A stretch of 56,886 nt of DNA, from the IMG/VR virus record IMGVR_UViG_3300033066_001236, one strand, 5' to 3'. The DNA is from an uncultured virus (IMG/VR IMGVR_UViG_3300033066_001236). Its lineage: Duplodnaviria; Heunggongvirae; Uroviricota; Caudoviricetes. Positions within the stretch are counted from its first letter, which is position 1, and each line of letters opens with the position of its first letter. The notes beneath the pieces were generated by a model, which was given only the letters and a program-made list of their open reading frames with translations, did no database searches and had not been told where the DNA came from. The translations under genes were made by a program, and so were the position numbers. Below are positions 8,985 through 52,868 of the stretch, one piece after another.

Positions 8985-10121
8985 ATGAGCACCTTATACG
9001 AAAGTCTACTGGACCTGGTTCAAAGTAACCCAGCGTTCTACTATCAGGATTACGGCAACTACCGGGTATTCAACTACCGGCTAGCTCGATATTCTGATTT
9101 TTTAGCACCGAATGCCCTTGAGGCCCGAGGGATTACTTTTTACATTCCAAACCTGGAAACCTCCACTGATCCAAACGATGCGGTCTTAGTCTCTCGCCCA
9201 TTCAAGAAGTTCTTTAATCTGGGGGAAAATCCCTTCACCATAGGGCTGGACACTCGGCAAGAAAATTGCATCGGGGTGTGGGAGAAGGAAGACGGCTCAA
9301 TGATCTCTTCCTATATCGATGTACCCACTGGCCAACTCAGACTAAAGTCTAAGCAGAACCTATATTCTGTCCAGAGCAACTTGGCGAACGAAATCATCAA
9401 TCGTTCTGAGAACATAGGCTTAAGACACGCGGTTTACAGTCTTGCGCTTTTCGGCCTCACCATAATCTTTGAATTGGTATCGCCAGCCAATCGGATTGTG
9501 CTAGAGTACCCTAAAACAGAACTTCGACTATTAGGTGCCCGAAGCAACTCCACCGGGGTAACCTATAGTCCGGAGGAAGTAGTCAAGCTCGATAGTAGAT
9601 TGGCATACTACAGCCCCCTACGCCCCCCTTTTATTAGCCCAGACTTGGTTCCAAAGATGACAGGCATAGAAGGGTACGTATACACGTTTCTAAGAGACGG
9701 TGAGCCTGTAATGACCAAGGTGAAAACTGACTGGTACATATCACTACACCATCTGAAAGATTCTGTTAACACACCGCGTAGACTCTACGAGGCTATCATC
9801 TTCGAAACTATCGACGATGTGAAGAACATGTTTGCTACGGATCCTTACAGTATCTCTAGAATTGAACATATGGAGTCAAAAGTTATACCCCTGTATAACG
9901 ACATGATTTCAAAGGTAGAAACCTATCATCGACTGAACAAGGATCTATCTCGAAAAGATTACGCTATCAAAGGACAAGCCGAACTTGGACCACTTTTTAG
10001 CCTAGGTATGAACGCCTACCTTGGTAAGCCTGCTGGATACCAAGAATTTGCCATCAAACACATGTCCGACTACTTCGGAATTTCTGCATCTGACGACCCT
10101 TACTCTACAGAGGATTCTTGA
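8985..10121 (+). CDS. RNA ligase 1 (T4 Rnl1-like)
   Basis: ARGITF, SRPFKKFFNLGE, motif I KEDGSMI, FELVSPANRIV, EGYV, KVKTDWY. Confidence 0.92.
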   Translation: MSTLYESLLDLVQSNPAFYYQDYGNYRVFNYRLARYSDFLAPNALEARGITFYIPNLETSTDPNDAVLVSRPFKKFFNLGENPFTIGLDTRQENCIGVWEKEDGSMISSYIDVPTGQLRLKSKQNLYSVQSNLANEIINRSENIGLRHAVYSLALFGLTIIFELVSPANRIVLEYPKTELRLLGARSNSTGVTYSPEEVVKLDSRLAYYSPLRPPFISPDLVPKMTGIEGYVYTFLRDGEPVMTKVKTDWYISLHHLKDSVNTPRRLYEAIIFETIDDVKNMFATDPYSISRIEHMESKVIPLYNDMISKVETYHRLNKDLSRKDYAIKGQAELGPLFSLGMNAYLGKPAGYQEFAIKHMSDYFGISASDDPYSTEDS

Positions 10122-10122
10122 A

Positions 10123-10503
10123 ATGATAGTCAACACTCCTGAAGCCGAACGCGGCTACAACGATATGATGGAAGGAGAGGAAGCTGTTCAGCGAATTCTC
10201 CGCGACCCCAACATCACCTACAAGGACAAGTTGTTCATCTTCATGAACACCAAGGGGTTGTACTACAAGTTTGCGGAGGACGTCCCCGCGTTCCCCAAGT
10301 TCACGGCCAAATATGGTCCGATAAACTGGGGGTCTGACTGGGGATACGCTAAGGATTCCACCGTTGACCTTGCCAGCATTTGCAAGTGGCTTGTATTAAG
10401 AGATCCTGTTCACCCCAAGTCTTGGACGTTGGAGATGAAGAAGGACTTTGTTAAAGAATGCGTAGAACAGGGAGTACACGAGTTTGAATTCTCAGACACT
10501 TGA
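10123..10503 (+). CDS. Hypothetical protein
   Basis: ATG directly after the ligase stop; overlaps the next gene. Confidence 0.6.
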   Translation: MIVNTPEAERGYNDMMEGEEAVQRILRDPNITYKDKLFIFMNTKGLYYKFAEDVPAFPKFTAKYGPINWGSDWGYAKDSTVDLASICKWLVLRDPVHPKSWTLEMKKDFVKECVEQGVHEFEFSDT

Positions 10504-10939
10504 AACTCAAGGGGGACTGGAGTCCTCCCCCAAGGTACTATTGCTTGTTCGAGGTCTACCTGGGTCAGGGAAATCGAGCCTTGCAAAGTATTTTGCGGAG
10601 GAGACTTTACGGAAAACGTTTACTTGCTCCGCCGACGACTTTTTCACCAACCCCTTCACCAAAGAATACAAGTTCATCCCTAGCAAAATAGGGGAGGCTC
10701 ACGAAGCCTGCCAAGTTGCAACTCGCTTTGCTCTCTCCCATGAGGGAGACGTCCTGGTTGTTGTTCACAACACATCAACTACAGAGAACGAAGTAGAGAC
10801 CTATAAGACTATAGCTGAGGAAGCGGGTGCGGCCTTTGTCAGTATCGTTGTGGAGAACCGGCATGGGAATCCCTCTATCCACGGCGTGCCTGAGGAAACG
10901 CTGGGTCGAATGAAGGCACGCTTTTCGATAAAACTATGA
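10484..10939 (+). CDS. P-loop polynucleotide kinase-like protein (AAA_33 type)
   Basis: VRGLPGSGKS, SADDFF, HNT, HGVPEETLGRM. Confidence 0.85.
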   Translation: MNSQTLETQGGLESSPKVLLLVRGLPGSGKSSLAKYFAEETLRKTFTCSADDFFTNPFTKEYKFIPSKIGEAHEACQVATRFALSHEGDVLVVVHNTSTTENEVETYKTIAEEAGAAFVSIVVENRHGNPSIHGVPEETLGRMKARFSIKL

Positions 10940-11442
10940 AGTACGCCGTAATATTTGACATTGACGGAACATTGGCGGATTCCCGTCACCGTCTTCACTA
11001 TCTCAACCCTCCAACTGGAGTCAAAAAAAACTGGACCAAGTTCTTTACAGAGTCCAGTGAAGATGAGGTTTTCCCTCTAATTCTTAAATGCGTAGAGATT
11101 GTTCACTCAACGGGCATAGAGCCACTAATGGTTACCGCTAGACCAGACTCAGAACGAGAGCGAACTGTCGCCTGGTTGACTCGCCACTCTATACCCTTTA
11201 TGGGTCTTTACATGAGAGGCTCTACCGACCGAAGGGTAGATCATCTCGTAAAACAAGATCTACTTGCAAAGATACAACTCGACGGCTACGCCCCGCTTGC
11301 GGCGTTTGACGATAAGACCAATGTTTTGGATATGTGGCTCTCTAACGGCCTAAGAGCATACAAATGTACTGACGGAGTATTAGAACCGTATGACCGACCA
11401 ATTGACCCTACCTCCGGGGATTTCGGACTTGGAGGGGACTGA
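10936..11442 (+). CDS. HAD phosphatase (Pnkp 3'-phosphatase-like)
   Basis: FDIDGTLA, VTAR, LYMR...D...K and FDD; ATGA overlap with the kinase. Confidence 0.88.
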   Translation: MKYAVIFDIDGTLADSRHRLHYLNPPTGVKKNWTKFFTESSEDEVFPLILKCVEIVHSTGIEPLMVTARPDSERERTVAWLTRHSIPFMGLYMRGSTDRRVDHLVKQDLLAKIQLDGYAPLAAFDDKTNVLDMWLSNGLRAYKCTDGVLEPYDRPIDPTSGDFGLGGD

Positions 11443-16522: not shown

Positions 16523-17139
16523 ATCTAAGACCAGATAGTAAAAAGGTAGAATCTGCGAGAACAAAGGGCTTCTTGCTAGTAGGGTCTACGTACTCCCTGT
16601 TGACCAGCTCAACTCCTTCAATACAACCCGATTTCTTGTCCCATCTAGGGCAGTGTCTCAAACTCGCCAAGGACTTGGCGGCGGACTTTGGCATAGAAGC
16701 TTTCATGCCTCAAAACTTTGAGCAAGCGTGGACTGGTTTTACTCCGCCGGGAATAGAGTTGGCTCAAGCTCAGCTAATAAAGAGCTCTACAACCATTTGG
16801 ATTACGGCCAAGGCCTATCCAGAAACAGTGGAGGAATATGGCATACAATATGACCTCTATCAATACCTAGCAACCCTGTACGCGTATCACCAATCAATCA
16901 TGGATACCATTATGACCACAACAGCCGCCGCCGATTCCCTGCAAGTAGGGGCTCGTTACAAACGACGCGATGGATCAATAGTCTTGATCACTTCTAAGCA
17001 CGACGGGCTATACCCTTACAAGGACGAGACGGGTAATTCGTACTTGGCAAGCGGCCGTTATCAACTGCCGACGTACGCTGATTCTCCGCTAGATATCATG
17101 GAAAGAGTAATCGATGACGAGACGACTAGTAACTCTTAG
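16519..17139 (+). CDS. Hypothetical protein
   Basis: 206-aa ORF coupled to both neighbours. Confidence 0.6.
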   Translation: MNLRPDSKKVESARTKGFLLVGSTYSLLTSSTPSIQPDFLSHLGQCLKLAKDLAADFGIEAFMPQNFEQAWTGFTPPGIELAQAQLIKSSTTIWITAKAYPETVEEYGIQYDLYQYLATLYAYHQSIMDTIMTTTAAADSLQVGARYKRRDGSIVLITSKHDGLYPYKDETGNSYLASGRYQLPTYADSPLDIMERVIDDETTSNS

Positions 17140-18244
17140 GACGGTATCCGCTCTGACGCCTATAGAAGGAGCGGATCGCATCGAGCTGGCTACTGTAGAC
17201 GGATGGCAGTGCGTAGTAAAGAAGGGGGAGTTCAAAGTAGGAGAACGGGGACTCTATTTCGAGATAGACTCGTTCTTACCCGCCTCCGACTCTCGGTTTG
17301 ACTTCTTAGCGAAAGAGAAAAAATGCTGGAAGAATAGAGAAGGCTATCGCCTTCAGACCCGGCGGTTCCAGAAACAGCTATCACAAGGTTTGCTGAGACC
17401 GCTGTCGGAATTTCCTGAAGTCAAACAGAGGTATTTTTCCGATACAGACTACGCGGATCTTCTGGGGGTGGTCAAATGGGAGCGGGACACCGAGACCGTC
17501 AAGGTGCCGAAGAAGAAGACTTGGCTAAGCAAGGTGGTATCCAAGTACAAGCACACCCGCCTGCGGCCTTTTCTTCTGTGGCTAGAAGTCCGATTTCCCT
17601 CCTGGTTTGCTAGAGAGGCGACGCGTCCATTCCCGAGGTTTGTCCCTAAGACGGACGAAGAGAGAGTACAGAACTGCCTTGCCCGCCTAGTAACCTACCG
17701 AGATCTAGGAATTAGGTTTCACAGAACGGTGAAACTCGACGGGTCTTCCATGACGGTCTACTATAATCGAGGCAAGGTAGGGGTCTGCTCCAGAAACCTA
17801 GATCTCAAAAAGGACAAGGACAATGCATTCTGGTCCGTAGTCTTAGGTAACAACCTAGACAAGGCCCTTAAGAAGCTTGGTCGAAACATAGCGCTCCAAG
17901 GGGAACTGATGGGGCCAGGAATTCAGAAGAACCGAGAGAAATTGTCAAAGCTAGAGTACTACCTGTTTAAAGCCTATGACATCGATAGTAACAACTATCT
18001 TTCACGGGACGAACGCTCGGCTCTTGTAGCCGATCTGCGACTTGCAGGAGCTACTCTGTATCAAGTACCCAGTCTGGGCGTAGACGACCTATCAAAGTTT
18101 CCGTCAATAGCGGAATTTCTAGCTTTTGCGGAAGGGGCCTCTCTTAATGCCGAGACCCGAGAGGGCGTAGTCTTTGAGTCAATGGATGGGGCGTTTAGCT
18201 TCAAAGTAATAAGTAACAGCTATCTTTTAGAAAAAGGGAATTAA
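17114..18244 (+). CDS. RNA ligase (DRB0094/Rnl2-related) with N-terminal OB-like domain
   Basis: PIEGADRIELATVDGWQCVVKKGEF, SQGLL, KTDEERVQN, motif I KLDGSS, QGELMGPGIQ, EGVV, FKVIS. Confidence 0.9.
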   Translation: MTRRLVTLRTVSALTPIEGADRIELATVDGWQCVVKKGEFKVGERGLYFEIDSFLPASDSRFDFLAKEKKCWKNREGYRLQTRRFQKQLSQGLLRPLSEFPEVKQRYFSDTDYADLLGVVKWERDTETVKVPKKKTWLSKVVSKYKHTRLRPFLLWLEVRFPSWFAREATRPFPRFVPKTDEERVQNCLARLVTYRDLGIRFHRTVKLDGSSMTVYYNRGKVGVCSRNLDLKKDKDNAFWSVVLGNNLDKALKKLGRNIALQGELMGPGIQKNREKLSKLEYYLFKAYDIDSNNYLSRDERSALVADLRLAGATLYQVPSLGVDDLSKFPSIAEFLAFAEGASLNAETREGVVFESMDGAFSFKVISNSYLLEKGN

Positions 18245-19400: not shown

Positions 19401-19476
19401 CGCGCAATAGATCAGTTGGTAGATCGCTGGGCTCATAACCCGGAGGCCGTAGGTTCAAGTCCTACTTGCGCAACCA
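19401..19476 (+). tRNA. tRNA-fMet(CAU)
   Basis: C1:A72 mismatch, GGG/CCC anticodon stem, CTCATAA loop, encoded CCA. Confidence 0.93.
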
Positions 19477-19535
19477 ACGAAAAGAGAATGAGTTCAAGCC
19501 CTCAAATTCTCTTTTTACAAACCCAGATGGTAATC

Positions 19536-19544
19536 TGGTATAAG
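19536..19544 (+). promoter_or_regulatory. TGGTATAAG promoter-like motif for the tmRNA
   Basis: Directly upstream of the tmRNA acceptor piece. Confidence 0.65.
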
Positions 19545-19652
19545 AACCATGTAGGAGGAGCTTCGGCTTTTCCTGCTGGCGGAAGGGTCATTCGTGGCCT
19601 TCCAATGATCGTAAACTTTCCTTGAAGAACGTTTCTCGGACGCGGGTTCGAT

Positions 19653-20289
19653 TACGAAAGTTAGTCGACTCAGGGGGCGACCCCTGATGAATAAAAGTGG
19701 CTCAAACGGCGAAAGCGTGAAAACGTAACACCGTACCAAAACCGACAGGCAACTTCGGCGACGGTCTAGAGACTTATAGGGTGTCTACCCCAAGTTCAAC
19801 AAAACTTGGCACGACATCACTAGGATGGAAGAAATCGATTTCGAAAGCATGTTTAGCCTTTGTCTGGGCCTCAGAGTACTTTCCGTTTCGCACGGTAAGC
19901 CCCTTATAACGCTCAGTCAGCAACAACATGCGTCGCTTCTTTTCGGGCTCTTGTATGTAGGGTAAAAGCTTACTGATAGCAGTCAATGCTTTGTCGTTAG
20001 CGATTTTCCAACTATACGATTGTTTGTGGTGGGCTTTGTATACCTTATGAGTACTTATGTGACCTCCAAAAGTCGTCACGTAGAGCTCTAACAGGTTAAG
20101 GGACGTGCTAGACATAGAAAGAACCGGGTAACGAAACATTAAGTTGTTCGCCCGGGTACACATCGTCACCGTTCCCTCACCATCAAACAGCCCTGCTAAA
20201 TAAGCTAATCGTAATTGTTCTTCCATAAATGCCACTCTCTCATGGTTGAGATATTACCATGAGATGAAGGAATAGTCCACAGAAGTGTG
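19653..20289 (+). mobile_element. Group I intron (637 nt) in the tmRNA T-loop
   Basis: Exon UCGAU pairs with intron GUCGA (U.G splice pair). Terminal G present. Core motifs: AAACGGCGAAAGC, ACACCGUACCAAA, GGUCUAGAGACU, GAAUAGUCC. Removal restores the 7-nt loop TTCGATT. Confidence 0.88.
19774..20226 (-). CDS. Single-motif LAGLIDADG homing endonuclease, antisense inside the tmRNA intron
   Basis: AYLAGLFDGEG...FGGHI...SYSWKI...KLLPYIQEPEK. ATG at 20226, or GTG at 20235. Confidence 0.9.
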   Translation of the reverse strand: MEEQLRLAYLAGLFDGEGTVTMCTRANNLMFRYPVLSMSSTSLNLLELYVTTFGGHISTHKVYKAHHKQSYSWKIANDKALTAISKLLPYIQEPEKKRRMLLLTERYKGLTVRNGKYSEAQTKAKHAFEIDFFHPSDVVPSFVELGVDTL

Positions 20290-20898
20290 TCCCGCCAGCT
20301 CCACCATGGGGGGCTGCCAGGTTTCGACGTGGAATAAGTACGCTTTGAAAGCGATCCGGCAGACGAACGCCGTAAATGTAGTAAAACCACAAATGCCAAC
20401 GATGAGTTTGCATACGCCCGCCGCGCCGCCTAAAAACGGCTGCGGCACCTGACTAGACTCTTCGGGGTTTAGTTAGTGCGGAGTGTTTCTGGTACGGTTA
20501 GCTTGGCAACAGAAGCCCTAACGGGTAAACCGTACTACCAAATTTTGGCAACCTGCGAAGCAGTCCGGAGAAGAATACGGACAACCCCTGACGACGGGGG
20601 ACGGAGCAAATTCGTCGTTGACTGACTGGGGGTTCGTACGAGACCGACACCAAGCGGCTTCTCAAGCCCCTAAACGCCGGCTCAGCGGGTACAACCACTG
20701 ACACACCGGCCTCTGAGGGCCTCAGTTCATTCCTTATTATGAGACCGAGGAGTTCCGGCGGGTATACGTCATCTTAAATCAATGATGTGTCTCTGCCTGT
20801 ACCCCTTCGCAGGACCTGCCTATCTCTGGGCCGTTCGGCCCGACCGCTATGGGTGTGAGCGGTTCAATATCACACCCAAATCCATCGAAGGAATCTTC

Positions 20899-32538: not shown

Positions 32539-32745
32539 ATGTTGATTAACAGCGTTCTCTGGCTCCTGATGTGGGCCGCGTTTGGGGCCTTGATGGGCTG
32601 GGCTGGATGGGGCATTTTCGTTCCTGGGTTGCTCCTCGGGCTCGTTGTTGCCACCGGCTTCCTCATCTTCTACTGGCTGTCTACGACTGGTGACAAGGTA
32701 CTGGACGAGCTCTTTGGGTCTACGGACCCCACTAAGGGGAAATAA
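32539..32745 (+). CDS. Small membrane protein
   Basis: Two hydrophobic segments. Confidence 0.6.
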   Translation: MLINSVLWLLMWAAFGALMGWAGWGIFVPGLLLGLVVATGFLIFYWLSTTGDKVLDELFGSTDPTKGK

Positions 32746-33773
32746 TGTACACCCTACTTTCCCGGGATGAGTTCCGAGAGGGGGTCTTCGCCAGAGACAA
32801 GCACACGTGCATTTTGTGTGGAGCCCCGGGGCAAGATGCTCATCACATAATGGAGCGTCGGTTATGGCCTGACGGAGGTTACTACTTAGCCAACGGGGCT
32901 ACGGTTTGTGGCCCCTGTCACATCGCTTGCGAACAGACGCTGATCTCCCCAGATACCCTGTGGGACAAGATCAAGGTCAACGAAAGATTCCTACCGCCGC
33001 ACCTCTATACTGACCAAGAATACGACAAGTGGGGGAACCCCGTTCTAGCGAGCCGACTAAGAACCCGAGGGGAGTTGTTTGACGACCCGAGTGTTCAAAA
33101 GGTTCTAAAAGAAGGTGACGTGCTGTCTCTTTTTACCCACTATGTGAAGTACCCAAGAACCTATCATCTGCCTTGGTCTAGGGGCGTTAACGATGACGAC
33201 AGAATAATGGAATCTCGTTCTGGTTTCGAAGGCCGTCGGGTAATAGTGACGGAGAAAATGGACGGGGAAAATACTTCGATGTACTCGGATTATTTTCACG
33301 CTAGAAGCGTTGACGGTCGAAACCACTCATCGAGAGCCTGGGCTAAACAACTTTGGGGCAGGATCATGGGAGACATCCCGGAGGACTGGCGAGTTTGCGG
33401 TGAGAATTTATACGCCCAACATTCGCTTACCTATAACAATTTGCCATCGTACTTTATGGGCTTTTCCATCTGGGACGAAAGTAACGTGTGTCTAGACTGG
33501 GATGACACTCAGTCGTGGTTTCTACTGCTTGGAATCACGTCAGTACCCGTGCTGTATGACGGTATCTACGACGAAGCTTTGCTGAGAAAGTTGGCTGATA
33601 GCCTGGACCCCAGCGTATCGGAGGGCTATGTGGTGAGAGTAGCCGACAGGATTCCCTACTCGCAGTTTAGACACACCGTTGGCAAGTATGTCAGGGCCAA
33701 TCACGTTCAGACAGCCAAGCATTGGATGCACGGTCAGAGAGTCGTTCCCAATCAACTTGCCGCCAAAGTATAA
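32745..33773 (+). CDS. HNH-like domain fused to an ATP-dependent RNA ligase
   Basis: N-terminal CILCG..DAHHI..NGATVCGPCH; C-terminal KYPRTYHLPWS, TEKMDGEN, CGEN, EGYVVR, KYVR. Confidence 0.85.
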   Translation: MYTLLSRDEFREGVFARDKHTCILCGAPGQDAHHIMERRLWPDGGYYLANGATVCGPCHIACEQTLISPDTLWDKIKVNERFLPPHLYTDQEYDKWGNPVLASRLRTRGELFDDPSVQKVLKEGDVLSLFTHYVKYPRTYHLPWSRGVNDDDRIMESRSGFEGRRVIVTEKMDGENTSMYSDYFHARSVDGRNHSSRAWAKQLWGRIMGDIPEDWRVCGENLYAQHSLTYNNLPSYFMGFSIWDESNVCLDWDDTQSWFLLLGITSVPVLYDGIYDEALLRKLADSLDPSVSEGYVVRVADRIPYSQFRHTVGKYVRANHVQTAKHWMHGQRVVPNQLAAKV

Positions 33774-37672: not shown

Positions 37673-37961
37673 GTGTCCTTAGCTCAGTTGGATAGAGCAA
37701 CAGCCTTCTGAAATTTCGGGCCTCTATGAGGAAACTTGTAGAGTGTAACTGGTCAAACTCAGGGAAGCCTAAGTGGTCCGCATTCTAACGAATGTCCATA
37801 AGGTAATCCTGAGCCAAGCCCGGGTAAAACCGGGAAGGTGCAGAGACTTGACGGCCAGGATCTAACGCGAAAGCCATGATCAAGAGAAAGTCCAAGGAGT
37901 GGCGAAAGTCACACAAACTTGAAGCTGTGGGTCGGGGGTTCGAATCCCTCAGGACACGCCA
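37673..37961 (+). tRNA. tRNA-Arg(UCU), intron-containing (exons 37673-37709 and 37922-37961)
   Basis: Spliced anticodon arm ACAGC-CTTCT|AA-GCTGT; GTGTCCT/AGGACAC acceptor; CCA. Confidence 0.93.
37710..37921 (+). mobile_element. Compact group I intron (212 nt) after anticodon position 36
   Basis: AAACUCAGGGAAGCCUAA, AAUCCUGAGCCAAGC, GAAGGUGCAGAGACU, GAGAAAGUCC, terminal G. Confidence 0.93.
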
Positions 37962-39599: not shown

Positions 39600-40364
39600 C
39601 AACCGTTGCATCTTGGTTCGAACTGTAGTAAAATACAGTTTAATCAGGAGAATGCGGATGTCAACTAAAAACAGGCGAGTTGTTAACGGGTATGTTTTGC
39701 TTTACAGGCCGGACCATTTCAATTGTTTCTCTTCCTCCGACTGGAAGGGATACGTGTATGAGCATCGGTATGTTATGGAGCAACACTTAGGTAGAGCTCT
39801 AAGTTCCACAGAACTAGTGCATCACTTAGATTGCGACAAAACAAACAACCAGTTGAGTAACTTGATTGTTCTGTCCCGAGCTGACCACGTCAAGCTGCAC
39901 GGATGGATAGACAATGGTGCCCCTATATGCGAAAGCTATAGGGAGAACGGGGTGAATTCAGGGAAAGCTAACCCTTCAGGTAGAGTTTGTCAAGTGTGCG
40001 AAGGTAGTCTATCTTCAACTCAAAAACAGACTTGTAGTAGAACTTGTCATAACCAACATCTGGCCCGCGTTAGCAGAAAAGTAGAACGACCTTCGTTCGA
40101 ACAACTGACTGAAGACTACAAAAACTTATCGATCGTCAAGATTGGTAAAAAATACGGAGTCTCTGACAACGCAGTCAGGAAGTGGATGGCGGGTTACCTC
40201 AAAGGCATGTCAACCCTGAGCCAAGCCGATGATACATCGTCGGAAGGTGCAGAGACTAGTGGAGGGGTTCAGTCCCCTTAATAACCACATTAGCGCCCCG
40301 GTCCCTAACGTAAAGTCGAGGGATGTGAGATAGTCCAGGGAGTACAGAAATGTACACAAACCGG
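39600..40364 (+). mobile_element. Group I intron (765 nt) with HNH homing endonuclease
   Basis: IGS GUG (39916-18) lies before P2 CCCUAUA/UAUAGGG. Core: GAAUUCAGGGAAAGC, AACCCUGAGCCAAGC, GAAGGUGCAGAGACU, GAGAUAGUCC. Terminal G. Confidence 0.92.
39658..40281 (+). CDS. Intron-encoded HNH homing endonuclease with C-terminal zinc finger/HTH
   Basis: YVYEHRYVME...VHHLDCDKTNN..SNL...HVKLH; CQVC..CSRTC; IGKKYGVSDNAVRKW. Confidence 0.9.
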   Translation: MSTKNRRVVNGYVLLYRPDHFNCFSSSDWKGYVYEHRYVMEQHLGRALSSTELVHHLDCDKTNNQLSNLIVLSRADHVKLHGWIDNGAPICESYRENGVNSGKANPSGRVCQVCEGSLSSTQKQTCSRTCHNQHLARVSRKVERPSFEQLTEDYKNLSIVKIGKKYGVSDNAVRKWMAGYLKGMSTLSQADDTSSEGAETSGGVQSP

Positions 40365-52079: not shown

Positions 52080-52868
52080 TCACCTCCCTAGGTAAGCTTC
52101 TTTTTTACCCAAAATGTCCTTCAGCATAGCCAGACCCTCTTGGTGGATTCTACGTATCTCACTCTTGGGTAACTTCAAAGCTCTTGCCATTTCTGCGGGC
52201 TTGTGCTCTTTGCCGTCTTCGAGACCGGAAGCTCGGGCTACTATTTCTCGGTGAGGACTAGGGAGAGATGCTACCGCTTTCCAAACCTTTTCGTCGTCCA
52301 TCTGCCGCTGAACCTCTTCACCTATTACGTCAACAATGAACTCGCTCTCGTCCATGTCGTCTATGTAATAGGTCAAGTAGCGGGTTTGAGACAGCTCGTT
52401 TATATCCTTGTCAGAGGCATCCGGTAGGGCTGCCCTGAGTTCCTCGTTAGTGATTCCTGGGTTGGATTCTTTCAACTTAGCGATCTTGACCGCTAACTGC
52501 TGTTTGAGGATAGGAACCGAAACCAGTCTAACCTTCGACATCTCTTTTAGTATTCGTTGCTTCACCCACCACCCAGCATACGATAGAAACTTGTACCCCA
52601 TAGACGGATCGTACTTGTCAAACCCTACCAGTAGCCCTTCATTTGCAGCGCCTATCAACTCCCGGAACAGGGACGTGTCCCCTTTTGCAAACTTCTTGGC
52701 TTCGTTGAAAGCAAACCTCAAATTGGAGTTTATGACTTGGGTTCGGATCTCTTCTTTTCGGGCAGCAGGAGTCTTGGGGTCTTTGTATTCGGTAAATAGT
52801 CGAACTTCGTCTTCCGTGCTAAGTATCGGCTCTTTACAAATTTCTGAATAGTACTTCGATAAGTCCAT
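52080..52868 (-). CDS. Phage-encoded sigma70-family RNA polymerase sigma factor
   Basis: Region 1.2 YYSEICKEPILS; region 2 NSNLRFAFNEAKKF...ELIGAANEGL...KYDPSMGYKFLSYAGWWVKQRI; region 4 HTH. Confidence 0.9.
   Translation of the reverse strand: MDLSKYYSEICKEPILSTEDEVRLFTEYKDPKTPAARKEEIRTQVINSNLRFAFNEAKKFAKGDTSLFRELIGAANEGLLVGFDKYDPSMGYKFLSYAGWWVKQRILKEMSKVRLVSVPILKQQLAVKIAKLKESNPGITNEELRAALPDASDKDINELSQTRYLTYYIDDMDESEFIVDVIGEEVQRQMDDEKVWKAVASLPSPHREIVARASGLEDGKEHKPAEMARALKLPKSEIRRIHQEGLAMLKDILGKKEAYLGR

What the first reader, a model, noticed from the sequence alone, without database searches (positions are those of the whole stretch)
19551..20476. Circularly permuted two-piece tmRNA in a phage, with only a 3-nt intervening segment
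Seen: the order is promoter, pseudoknot (GGAAGG/CCTTCC with TCATT/AATGA), T-arm, CAGCTCC-A-CCA (ends 20306), TGG, GGGGCTG (starts 20310), tag ORF. The acceptor has the G3.U70 Ala determinant, and GATCG/CGATC can pair between the two pieces. Known: permuted tmRNA genes occur in Alphaproteobacteria, some cyanobacteria and a betaproteobacterial lineage, while the phage tmRNAs I know are one-piece. Inference: the precursor's acceptor stem is capped by a 7-nt loop that must be opened, an unusually tight substrate for RNase P and 3' trimming.
Basis: partly seen in the sequence, partly recalled or inferred. Interest (0 to 1): 0.9.

Follow-up and report, generated by a model that had tools for sequence, protein, structure and literature searches.

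The report
Phage two-piece tmRNA gene with intron
A phage carries a gene for the ribosome-rescue RNA tmRNA that is both circularly rearranged and interrupted by a self-splicing intron, a combination not listed among the known forms of this gene, whereas the three-base spacer that first drew attention turns out to be ordinary.

Summary
Window 19551-20540 encodes a circularly permuted (two-piece) tmRNA: Rfam RF04321 scores 69.2 bits against a cut-off of 47. CAGCTCC-A-CCA ends at 20306, TGG follows, GGGGCTG starts at 20310, and the tag is ANDEFAYARRAA.

The two novelty claims do not hold. Phage two-piece tmRNAs are already published (PMC9004378) and annotated (Sphingobium phage Lacusarx). Spacers of 3-6 nt are the norm in bacterial beta-type permuted genes: 53 of 57 ARAGORN-called permuted genes among 120 loci.

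What is new is the combination. The T-loop is split at 19652|19653 by a 637-nt group I intron (19653-20289). The intron carries a LAGLIDADG gene on the opposite strand (19774-20226) in its P7.2 loop.

ARAGORN finds no tmRNA in the raw window. It calls a permuted tmRNA once the intron is removed in silico.

The same intron family sits at the same site in nine related loci: seven permuted and two standard genes, among them the isolated cyanophage PA-SR01, where it is unannotated. Helix P3 pairs fully in 11 of 11 introns, with 7 sequence variants.

The 2025 tmRNA database paper lists standard, permuted and intron forms, but no permuted-plus-intron form. Splicing and processing are inferred, not shown.

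The parts
19401..19476 (+). tRNA-Met (CAT) directly upstream. Context only. Its first acceptor pair is C-A, as in initiator tRNAs.
   Evidence: ARAGORN. In the Rfam tRNA alignment the first pair is marked non-standard. The initiator reading is from general knowledge.
19536..19544 (+). Extended -10-like TGGTATAAG. A possible but weak start signal for the acceptor piece.
   Evidence: Sequence. PA-SR01 and L022 have TGCTATAAT and L024 has TGCTATACT at a similar distance. The consensus scan did not call this site. Inference.
19551..19603 (+). Two UUCG-capped hairpins (19551-19576 and 19581-19603) at the 5' end of the acceptor piece or in its leader.
   Evidence: strand folding: MFE -27 kcal/mol, z -2.63.
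19607..19652 (+). Exon 1 of the acceptor piece. P2 strands GAUCG (19607-11), CUUUC (19616-20) and GUUUCUCG (19631-38). T-stem 5' strand GCGGG (19642-46). T-loop nt 1-6, UUCGAU (19647-52).
   Evidence: A weak RF04321 match aligns 19607-19641 to model positions 1-35 with high posterior. There is a compensatory change against L027: GAUCG/CGAUC versus GGUCG/CGACC.
19653..20289 (+). Group I intron, 637 nt. P1 guide GUCGA 19664-68, pairing with exon UCGAU through U19652.G19664. P2 19670-76/19681-87. P3 19696-701/20231-36. P4 19706-09/19731-34. P5 19715-18/19723-26. P6 19742-45/19755-58. P7 19769-74/20274-78. P7.1 19777-83/19815-22. P7.2 19825-33/20218-26. P8 20238-46/20256-64. Terminal G at 20289.
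   Evidence: Helix table from anchored segments. P3 pairs 6/6 in 11 of 11 related introns, with 7 sequence variants. RNAalifold on 9 endonuclease-less relatives: 18 of 32 pairs carry compensatory changes. No RF00028 match at E up to 10.
19774..20226 (-). LAGLIDADG-type endonuclease gene, 150 aa from the ATG at 20226, on the strand opposite to the tmRNA. It fills the P7.2 loop, and its last codons overlap P7.1 and P7.
   Evidence: ORF list. 57% identity over 139 aa to the equally antisense ORF of L027, E 4e-56. phrog_5046, E 5e-22. Pfam LAGLIDADG_1 scores 21.7 bits, below the 23.1 cut-off. PDB I-CvuI, E 0.03.
20251..20259 (-). Extended -10-like TGGTAATAT on the minus strand, inside the enlarged P8 loop, ending 24 nt before the endonuclease ATG. 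A candidate promoter of the antisense gene.
   Evidence: Script. L027 has TGATATAAT in the same loop, ending 31 nt before its ATG. Background for TGNTANNNT is 0.69 per kb per strand. Inference.
20290..20306 (+). Exon 2 of the acceptor piece. T-loop nt 7 (U). T-stem 3' strand CCCGC. Acceptor 3' strand CAGCUCC. Discriminator A. Encoded CCA.
   Evidence: Sequence. RF04321 alignment. ARAGORN 3' tRNA domain.
20307..20309 (+). Intervening segment TGG, absent from the mature RNA. RNase P is expected to cut between 20309 and 20310.
   Evidence: Sequence. ARAGORN prints it between the two tRNA-like halves. The cut itself is inferred.
20310..20394 (+). 5' part of the coding piece. Acceptor 5' strand GGGGCUG. 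GGUUUCGAC. P2 strands CGUGGAA (20328-34), GAAAG (20347-51) and CGAUC (20352-56). Hairpin 20357-72. Lead-in to the resume codon.
   Evidence: RF04321 and RF01850 alignments.
20395..20433 (+). Tag reading frame ANDEFAYARRAA and stop codon TAA.
   Evidence: ARAGORN on the intron-free sequence. RF04321 alignment up to the UAA.
20434..20537 (+). Structured 3' part of the coding piece. UUCG hairpin 20450-20475. Long hairpin 20490-20537 holding AACAGAA (20508-14). The true 3' end is undetermined, and structure continues towards about 20700.
   Evidence: strand folding on 20434-20780, z -2.40. The AACAGAA motif aligns with Accumulibacter and phage permuted tmRNAs. No terminator-like site was called.

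Best explanation
The locus is a phage-borne, beta-type circularly permuted tmRNA gene. Its T-loop is interrupted, between loop nucleotides 6 and 7, by a group I intron with P7.1 and P7.2 helices. The intron carries an antisense LAGLIDADG endonuclease gene.

Proposed maturation (all steps inferred):
1. One transcript runs from about 19551, or from the tRNA-Met upstream, through at least 20537.
2. The intron (19653-20289) splices itself out and restores the T-arm GCGGG-UUCGAUU-CCCGC.
3. Only then does the acceptor/T-arm stack exist. RNase P cuts 5' of G20310 and opens the 7-nt loop, which separates the acceptor piece from the coding piece.
4. Exonucleases trim UGG to expose the encoded CCA.
5. 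The pieces stay joined through the acceptor stem and the P2 helices.
6. AlaRS charges the RNA through G3.U70. With the host's SmpB, it tags stalled peptides with ANDEFAYARRAA.

The endonuclease gene, read from the other strand, is a selfish homing element. It has probably spread the intron among phage tmRNA genes of both gene forms.
For: tmRNA identity:
- RF04321 scores 69.2 bits against a cut-off of 47, but the alignment deletes the T-loop.
- The missing T-arm half lies 637 nt upstream, where a second weak RF04321 match aligns model positions 1-35.
- ARAGORN finds 18 tRNAs and no tmRNA in the raw window.
- After in-silico intron removal, ARAGORN calls a permuted tmRNA with tag ANDEFAYARRAA.

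Intron:
- The exon's last U pairs with G in P1, and the intron ends in G.
- P1, P3-P8, P7.1 and P7.2 can be drawn in every relative examined.
- P3 is a pairing across 530 nt in the window. It forms 6/6 pairs in 11 of 11 introns, with 7 different sequences.
- RNAalifold on 9 endonuclease-less relatives gives 18 of 32 pairs with compensatory changes.
- The J8/7-P7 motif GAUGAAGGAAUAGUCC also occurs in the published tmRNA_intron seed alignment.

Relatives:
- The same intron sits at the same site in nine related loci. ARAGORN calls seven of them permuted: L021 (phage PA-SR01), L022, L024, L027, L151, L156 and L153.
- It calls two of them standard: L149 and L155.
- All of them keep a tag frame.

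Endonuclease: the window and L027 proteins share 57% identity, both antisense and both in P7.2.

Phage context: terminase, ribonucleotide reductase, thymidylate synthase, three RNA ligases, a helicase and 18 tRNAs. No SmpB family was found among the 45 ORFs scanned with Pfam.
Against: - No expression data. Nothing here shows transcription, splicing, RNase P cleavage or charging.
- Rfam's group I model RF00028 gives no match at E up to 10 in 19480-20700, although it finds two other introns in the window.
- RF01850 (beta_tmRNA) reaches only 55.1 bits against a cut-off of 84 on the unspliced sequence.
- The minimum-energy co-fold of the window's two pieces did not reproduce the homology-based P2 helices.
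- P7 and P4 are invariant across the relatives, so covariation cannot test them.
- The tag ends in RRAA rather than the usual hydrophobic-AA ending. This could weaken protease targeting (general knowledge).
- The plus-strand promoter-like site is poor.
Confidence: 0.8

Rival explanations
1. The gene is a decaying relic. A selfish intron invaded a phage tmRNA gene, splicing is inefficient or lost, and the phage gains nothing from the RNA.
For: No RF00028 match for the intron. The tag ending RRAA is atypical. The promoter-like site is poor. There is no evidence of expression.
Against: Every tRNA-like element, the tag frame and all intron helices are intact. They are kept by compensatory changes across six distinct permuted lineages. 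The endonuclease protein is conserved at 57% identity. Decay would not preserve a 6-bp pairing across 530 nt.
Confidence: 0.1
2. One reading: the remarkable feature is a uniquely tight 3-nt spacer in the first two-piece tmRNA of a phage, which poses an unusual problem for RNase P and 3' trimming.
For: The 7-nt loop A-CCA-UGG is really there. Rfam's consensus spacer is much longer: 27 consensus positions in RF04321.
Against: 53 of 57 bacterial permuted tmRNA genes in my sample have spacers of 3-6 nt, three of them exactly 3 nt. Viral contigs have spacers of 4 and 7 nt. Phage two-piece tmRNAs are published and annotated.
Confidence: 0.05
3. A three-piece tmRNA. The 637-nt insert is not spliced, and the T-arm halves associate in trans after other cleavages.
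For: Nothing here shows splicing. No spliced joint was seen in contigs, though contigs are a poor witness.
Against: A complete, covarying group I core, with U.G at the 5' site and a terminal G at the 3' site, would have no reason to be conserved. A broken T-loop would remove the element that RNase P and EF-Tu/SmpB contact (general knowledge).
Confidence: 0.02

Closest known systems
Beta-type two-piece tmRNA genes of Rhodocyclaceae/Accumulibacter (Rfam RF01850, RF04321; Sharkady and Williams 2004, not held here, recalled)
   Same: Gene order is acceptor piece then coding piece. The spacer is 3-6 nt. The T-arm flank GGACGCGGGTTCGATTCCCGCCA is identical. The tag starts ANDE... The AACAGAA-bearing structure follows the tag. 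RF01850 is the best clan match.
   Different: The bacterial genes have no intron. Their acceptor piece starts close to P2, without the two 5' hairpins. Their tag ends ALAA, against RRAA here.
Intron-form tmRNA genes: a standard gene with a T-loop group I intron (883 sequences in PMC11915505; Williams 2002, recalled)
   Same: The intron lies between T-loop nucleotides 6 and 7, the paper's main 'position 7' as I read its text; I did not see the figure. The core motif GAUGAAGGAAUAGUCC is shared. A LAGLIDADG gene sits in the P7.1 region.
   Different: The published form interrupts a one-piece gene and is bacterial. Here the interrupted gene is permuted and phage-borne. The endonuclease gene here is antisense; the paper does not state an orientation (0 hits for antisense, opposite or orientation).
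Published or annotated phage two-piece tmRNAs: Melnitz (PMC9004378) and Sphingobium phage Lacusarx (NC_041927)
   Same: A phage-encoded permuted tmRNA among tRNA genes.
   Different: Lacusarx's gene matches the alpha-type model, and Melnitz's is related to alphaproteobacterial genes according to its paper. Lacusarx has a long spacer and no intron. In Lacusarx a 41%-identical endonuclease homologue stands free, on the same strand, directly upstream of ssrA.
Pseudanabaena phage PA-SR01 locus (MT234670, 116.3-116.7 kb; unannotated)
   Same: A permuted tmRNA with the same intron family at the same T-loop site. The acceptor stem is capped by a 7-nt loop.
   Different: The intron is 227 nt and has no endonuclease gene. 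CCA is not encoded (A-UUUCAC-G1). The tag is AKNNICQFSRKAAPVAA.
Circularly permuted tRNA genes of Cyanidioschyzon merolae (PMC3978253, passages read)
   Same: The 3' half is encoded before the 5' half, and the junction is opened by tRNA-processing enzymes.
   Different: Those RNAs are religated into one piece. tmRNA pieces stay apart.

Membership tests
tmRNA, permuted (two-piece) form | Covariance-model match above the curated cut-off | tested here: met
   RF04321 scores 69.2 bits against 47. The clade-specific RF01850 reaches only 55.1 against 84 on the unspliced DNA.
tmRNA, permuted (two-piece) form | The acceptor 3' strand and CCA are encoded upstream of the acceptor 5' strand, with no 3' tRNA-like end after the tag | tested here: met
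   20296-20306 precedes 20310-20316. There is a single exact CAGCTCCACCA in the window.
tmRNA, permuted (two-piece) form | A 7-bp acceptor stem with G3.U70 and discriminator A | tested here: met
   GGGGCUG/CAGCUCC-A, read directly from the sequence.
tmRNA, permuted (two-piece) form | An intact T-arm | tested here: met
   Met only after removal of 19653-20289, which gives GCGGG-UUCGAUU-CCCGC.
tmRNA, permuted (two-piece) form | A tag reading frame with an Ala resume codon, a stop codon and a C-terminal AA | tested here: met
   ANDEFAYARRAA*, from ARAGORN.
tmRNA, permuted (two-piece) form | P2 helices that hold the two pieces together | tested here: inconclusive
   The Rfam alignment and a compensatory change against L027 support them. 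The window's minimum-energy co-fold chose other pairs.
tmRNA, permuted (two-piece) form | Cleavage into two RNAs, alanylation and SmpB-dependent tagging | not testable with these tools
   Needs RNA work.
Group I intron (tmRNA T-loop intron family) | The exon's last U pairs with G in P1, and the intron ends in G | tested here: met
   U19652.G19664 and G20289. The exon/guide pairing is the same in 10 of 11 relatives; L151 has GUCGC.
Group I intron (tmRNA T-loop intron family) | Core helices P3-P8 kept by compensatory change | tested here: met
   P3 pairs 6/6 in 11 of 11 introns, with 7 variants. A P8 hairpin is present in 11 of 11. 18 of 32 RNAalifold pairs are compensatory. P4 and P7 are invariant.
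Group I intron (tmRNA T-loop intron family) | A match to Rfam Intron_gpI (RF00028) | tested here: not met
   No match at E up to 10 in 19480-20700. The 380-nt insert in P7.2 and the subgroup may explain this.
Group I intron (tmRNA T-loop intron family) | Sequence likeness to published tmRNA introns | tested here: met
   GGAAUAGUCC occurs 12 times in the paper's tmRNA_intron seed file, within GAUGAAGGAAUAGUCCAGU. Only this one motif was compared.
Group I intron (tmRNA T-loop intron family) | Self-splicing | not testable with these tools
   Needs an in vitro splicing assay or raw RNA reads.
LAGLIDADG homing endonuclease (single-motif type) | The LAGLIDADG motif and a size of about 150-170 aa | tested here: met
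   LAGLFDGEG near the N-terminus of a 150-aa protein.
LAGLIDADG homing endonuclease (single-motif type) | A Pfam family match above the cut-off | tested here: not met
   PF00961 scores 21.7 bits against 23.1, and PF14528 scores 18.4 against 22.5.
LAGLIDADG homing endonuclease (single-motif type) | Homologues of known type | tested here: inconclusive
   phrog_5046, E 5e-22, but that family is named HNH endonuclease. Gordonia phage homologues are annotated as LAGLIDADG endonuclease. PDB I-CvuI reaches only E 0.03.

The most novel reading that the evidence does not exclude
Permuted-plus-intron is a fourth tmRNA gene form, so far seen only in large phages, and its intron doubles as immunity against its own antisense endonuclease. 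That enzyme's natural target is the uninterrupted T-arm DNA. This 24-bp stretch is identical between the window's exons and the ssrA genes of Rhodocyclaceae. The phage could therefore cut the host's, or a rival phage's, intron-free ssrA while its own copy is protected. That would replace host trans-translation with a phage tmRNA bearing a different tag end (RRAA) and would seed the intron into new genes.
Probability: 0.15. Interest if true: 0.8.

Novelty: new variant of a known kind. Interest (0 to 1): 0.55.

Why it matters
1. One small RNA would need two opposite maturation acts in a fixed order: a ribozyme must first join what the gene splits, and RNase P must then split what the gene joins. 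That makes it a compact natural test of how tRNA-like folding gates RNase P.

2. Current annotation misses the form. ARAGORN reports nothing. Rfam places the 5' boundary inside the intron. The isolated phage PA-SR01 has carried an unannotated copy since 2020.

3. The same intron family at the same site in permuted and standard phage genes points to homing on T-arm DNA, with phages as carriers of tmRNA introns. The core pattern was not found in 185,579 species genomes with the strict pattern. It was also not found in 401 plus 401 genomes with the relaxed pattern.

4. An endonuclease gene read antisense to its intron, with a promoter-like site in an enlarged P8 loop, is an unusual layout for a bacterial or phage group I intron. 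This last point rests on my general knowledge.

Tried and rejected
- **Public runs.** The stretch is held by 20 of 24 listed runs from 8 studies (wastewater, freshwater, river, activated sludge).
  - In the three RNA-labelled libraries I laid, it lies in contigs of 10.9-18.7 kb with no joint across the intron. This shows neither transcription nor splicing, and the libraries may hold DNA.
  - Two short low-depth contigs of the DNA run X7 leave the window at 19630 and 20383 with unlike letters. They may be a variant strain. I could not follow them up.
- **Own genome.** None is held.
- **Earlier findings of this scan.** None.
- **Papers.**
  - Sharkady and Williams 2004 (PMC516066) is not held, so what it says about spacer length is unknown to me.
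  - Supplementary Table S2 of PMC11915505 (forms by taxon) is not among the text held. Only the covariance models and seed alignments are. I therefore could not see which forms its 79 phage sequences have.
- **First alignment of the introns.** MAFFT with the full window intron misaligned the 3' half. I replaced it with anchored segments.
- **L023, L025 and L028.** These carry the same intron family, but no 3' exon matching a T-stem was found. Their context stays unresolved. L023 and L028 have an RF00028 intron just upstream.
- **Pseudoknot GGAAGG/CCTTCC with TCATT/AATGA.** Considered and set aside in favour of a plain hairpin.
- **Integration-site remnant.** Considered and rejected. Both pieces and the tag are complete, and no integrase family appeared among the ORFs scanned.
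- **Host.** Not determined. The nearest terminases are from Salmonella phage Arash (50%) and Vibrio phages (43%). PA-SR01 infects a cyanobacterium.
Full report
**What is in the sequence.**
- The acceptor 3' strand, discriminator and CCA (CAGCTCC-A-CCA) end at 20306.
- TGG follows at 20307-20309.
- GGGGCTG starts at 20310. This gives a 7-bp acceptor stem with G3.U70.
- Rfam's permuted-tmRNA model RF04321 matches 20250-20433 at 69.2 bits, against a gathering score of 47.
- That alignment deletes the T-loop, and its first 35 positions fall on unrelated sequence.
- The true partner lies upstream. GGACGCGGGTTCGAT ends at 19652, and a second, weak RF04321 match aligns 19607-19641 to model positions 1-35 with high posterior probability.
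- T-CCCGC resumes at 20290. The T-arm is therefore split by 637 bases.
- ARAGORN finds 18 tRNA genes and no tmRNA in the raw window.
- With 19653-20289 removed in a script, ARAGORN calls a permuted tmRNA with the tag ANDEFAYARRAA.
- No second copy of the acceptor 3' end exists downstream of the tag.

**The insert is a group I intron.**
- The last exon base U19652 can pair with G19664 in a P1 helix (UCGAU/GUCGA), and the insert ends in G20289.
- I cut each related intron into segments at invariant motifs and could draw P1, P3, P4, P5, P6, P7, P7.1, P7.2, P8 and, in most of them, P2 and P9.
- The strongest single test is P3, whose strands are 530 nt apart in the window (19696-19701 and 20231-20236). 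It forms six of six pairs in 11 of 11 introns examined, using 7 different sequences.
- RNAalifold on 9 endonuclease-less relatives, without the window, predicted 32 pairs, 18 of them with compensatory changes.
- P4 and P7 never vary, so they say nothing either way.
- Against this, Rfam's RF00028 gives no match here at E up to 10, although it finds two other introns in the window.
- The J8/7-P7 motif GAUGAAGGAAUAGUCC occurs in the seed alignment of the published tmRNA_intron model.
- The insertion point lies between T-loop bases 6 and 7. That fits the 'position 7' which the 2025 database paper calls the main site (PMC11915505, Results read; figure not seen).

**The endonuclease gene.**
- The only long ORF in the intron is on the minus strand (19774-20226, 150 aa from the ATG).
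- It carries LAGLFDGEG and matches phrog_5046 at E 5e-22.
- Pfam LAGLIDADG_1 scores 21.7 bits, just under the 23.1 cut-off. The I-CreI-family enzyme I-CvuI matches only weakly, at E 0.03.
- Metagenome locus L027 has a 57%-identical protein (E 4e-56), also antisense and also filling the P7.2 loop.
- Both endonuclease-bearing introns have an enlarged P8.
- On the minus strand, that P8 loop reads TGGTAATAT in the window, ending 24 nt before the ATG. In L027 it reads TGATATAAT, ending 31 nt before the ATG.
- I read this as a candidate promoter. It is inference only.
- A 41%-identical homologue in Sphingobium phage Lacusarx is free-standing. It lies on the same strand as an intron-free, annotated permuted ssrA and directly upstream of it.

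**Relatives.**
- A distant blastn hit led to Pseudanabaena phage PA-SR01.
- Two exact-pattern scans of viral contigs and one of metagenome contigs added more loci.
- In all, nine loci besides the window carry this intron in a tmRNA T-loop (ten with the window).
- After in-silico intron removal, ARAGORN calls a permuted tmRNA in 8 of the 10: the window, L021 (PA-SR01), L022, L024, L027, L151, L156 and L153.
- It calls a standard one-piece tmRNA in 2 of the 10: L149 and L155.
- L151 and L156 are near-identical, and L021 and L022 are close. That leaves about six distinct permuted lineages.
- The contigs are mostly large, 78-212 kb.
- Three further loci (L023, L025, L028) hold the intron family in a context I could not resolve.
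- The strict core pattern had no match in one genome each of 185,579 bacterial and archaeal species.
- The relaxed pattern had none in 401 genomes of the phylum of a cyanobacterial MAG, and none in 401 genomes of the order of Accumulibacter.
- These are exact-pattern searches, so the result means 'not found in those searched'.

**The 3-nt spacer is ordinary.**
- Twenty viral loci matched the permuted junction pattern. Their spacers were 4 nt (3 loci), 7 nt (2), 11 nt (3), 15 nt (1) and 26-29 nt (11).
- ARAGORN of these permuted tmRNA genes, with spacers of 3 nt (3 genes), 4 (45), 5 (4), 6 (1), 11 (3) and 12 (1).
- The other 63 are chance matches, tRNA-plus-standard-tmRNA neighbours, or were not called.
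- Most of the 57 are Rhodocyclaceae/Accumulibacter with the tag ANDERFALAA.
- One is the only RF04321 match (161 bits) in a complete Accumulibacter genome.
- The window's RNA aligns with these genes in its P2 strands, its ANDE tag start and the AACAGAA motif after the tag. RF01850 is its best clan match.
- In the intron-bearing relatives that do not encode CCA, the loop between the discriminator's stem and G1 is again 6-7 nt.

**Ends, promoter and 'pseudoknot'.**
- 19551-19612 folds as two UUCG-capped hairpins (z -2.63).
- L027 has a hairpin at the same place but no matching pseudoknot.
- The promoter-like TGGTATAAG (19536-19544) lacks the last T of the hexamer and was not called by the scan.
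- PA-SR01, L022 and L024 have better extended -10 motifs at a similar place.
- The coding piece runs beyond 20476, at least through the hairpin 20490-20537. Its 3' end is unknown.

**How it most likely works.** Everything in this section is inferred, from the anatomy and from what is established for group I introns, RNase P and two-piece tmRNA.
1. The precursor first splices itself. Without that step there is no T-arm for RNase P to measure against.
2. RNase P then cuts 5' of G20310.
3. Exonucleases remove UGG.
4. The two pieces stay paired, and AlaRS and the host's SmpB use them.

No SmpB family appeared among the 45 window ORFs scanned with Pfam. The 20 ORFs scanned with PHROGs showed a phage of the large, tRNA-rich kind, with terminase, ribonucleotide reductase, thymidylate synthase, three RNA ligases and a helicase. 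A polynucleotide kinase/phosphatase pair also turned up.

**Literature and novelty.**
- PMC9004378 (passages read) reports a two-piece tmRNA in phage Melnitz and 53 two-piece forms among 133 unique phage tmRNAs.
- PMC11915505 (passages and the Results section read) names three gene forms. It tabulates standard, permuted, intron, and two no-CDS classes among 97,179 sequences, with no permuted-plus-intron class.
- I could not see its Table S2.
- The PA-SR01 paper never mentions tmRNA: 0 occurrences.
- Five literature searches turned up no title on an intron in a permuted or phage tmRNA gene: 'tmRNA, two-piece, phage', 'permuted tmRNA', 'PA-SR01', 'two-piece tmRNA, intervening' and 'tmRNA, group I intron, phage'.
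- For one search, 15 of 47 listings were seen, by title and abstract start only.

**Verdict.** The thing is real, but its advertised novelty is not. The combination of permutation, a T-loop intron and an antisense endonuclease gene is a new variant of known kinds. It recurs in large phages and is missed by current annotation.

Noticed in passing
window 37698-37914 and 39899-40357: Two further group I introns, called by Rfam RF00028 at 66.5 and 63.4 bits. The second overlaps an HNH-endonuclease ORF on the same strand (39613-40281; phrog_15471, E 5e-32). I did not determine what they interrupt.
   Followed up: no
window 8985-11442, 17114-18244, 32745-33773: An RNA-repair gene set. Three RNA ligase ORFs (phrog_562, phrog_968, phrog_24030), a kinase-like AAA_33 ORF (10484-10939) and a PNKP phosphatase-domain ORF (10936-11442). 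They sit in the same phage as the 18 tRNA genes and the tmRNA.
   Followed up: partly
window 19401-56886: All 18 tRNA genes lie on the + strand. The one just upstream of the tmRNA (19401-19476, CAT anticodon) has a C-A first pair, like an initiator tRNA.
   Followed up: no
window 52080-52868 (-): An ORF with a sigma-70 region 2 domain (E 1e-8). A phage sigma factor could explain why host-type promoter consensus is poor in front of the tmRNA.
   Followed up: no
L157 (Sphingobium phage Lacusarx) 1426-2314: A free-standing homologue (41% identity) of the intron's endonuclease. It lies on the same strand as an intron-free, annotated alpha-type permuted ssrA, directly upstream of it and overlapping its annotated start.
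   Followed up: partly
L021 (PA-SR01, MT234670) 2400-2850: The isolated cyanophage PA-SR01 has an unannotated permuted tmRNA gene with a 227-nt T-loop intron and no encoded CCA. Its paper lists only three tRNAs.
   Followed up: yes
L023, L025, L028 (same intron family): The intron family also occurs outside any recognisable tmRNA. In L023 and L028 it lies directly downstream of another group I intron (RF00028, 42.7 bits). The exon context is unresolved.
   Followed up: partly
L149 and L155: Two large viral contigs carry the same intron in a one-piece (standard) tmRNA gene, with tags EETQELMAA and ANVTHVDFSFRKVAEIAA. This is the known 'intron form', but in phages.
   Followed up: partly
L135 and L060 (bacterial MAG contigs): Junctions with an intact T-arm and spacers of only 1 nt (L135) and 3 nt (L060), which ARAGORN did not call. 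They may be still tighter permuted genes.
   Followed up: no
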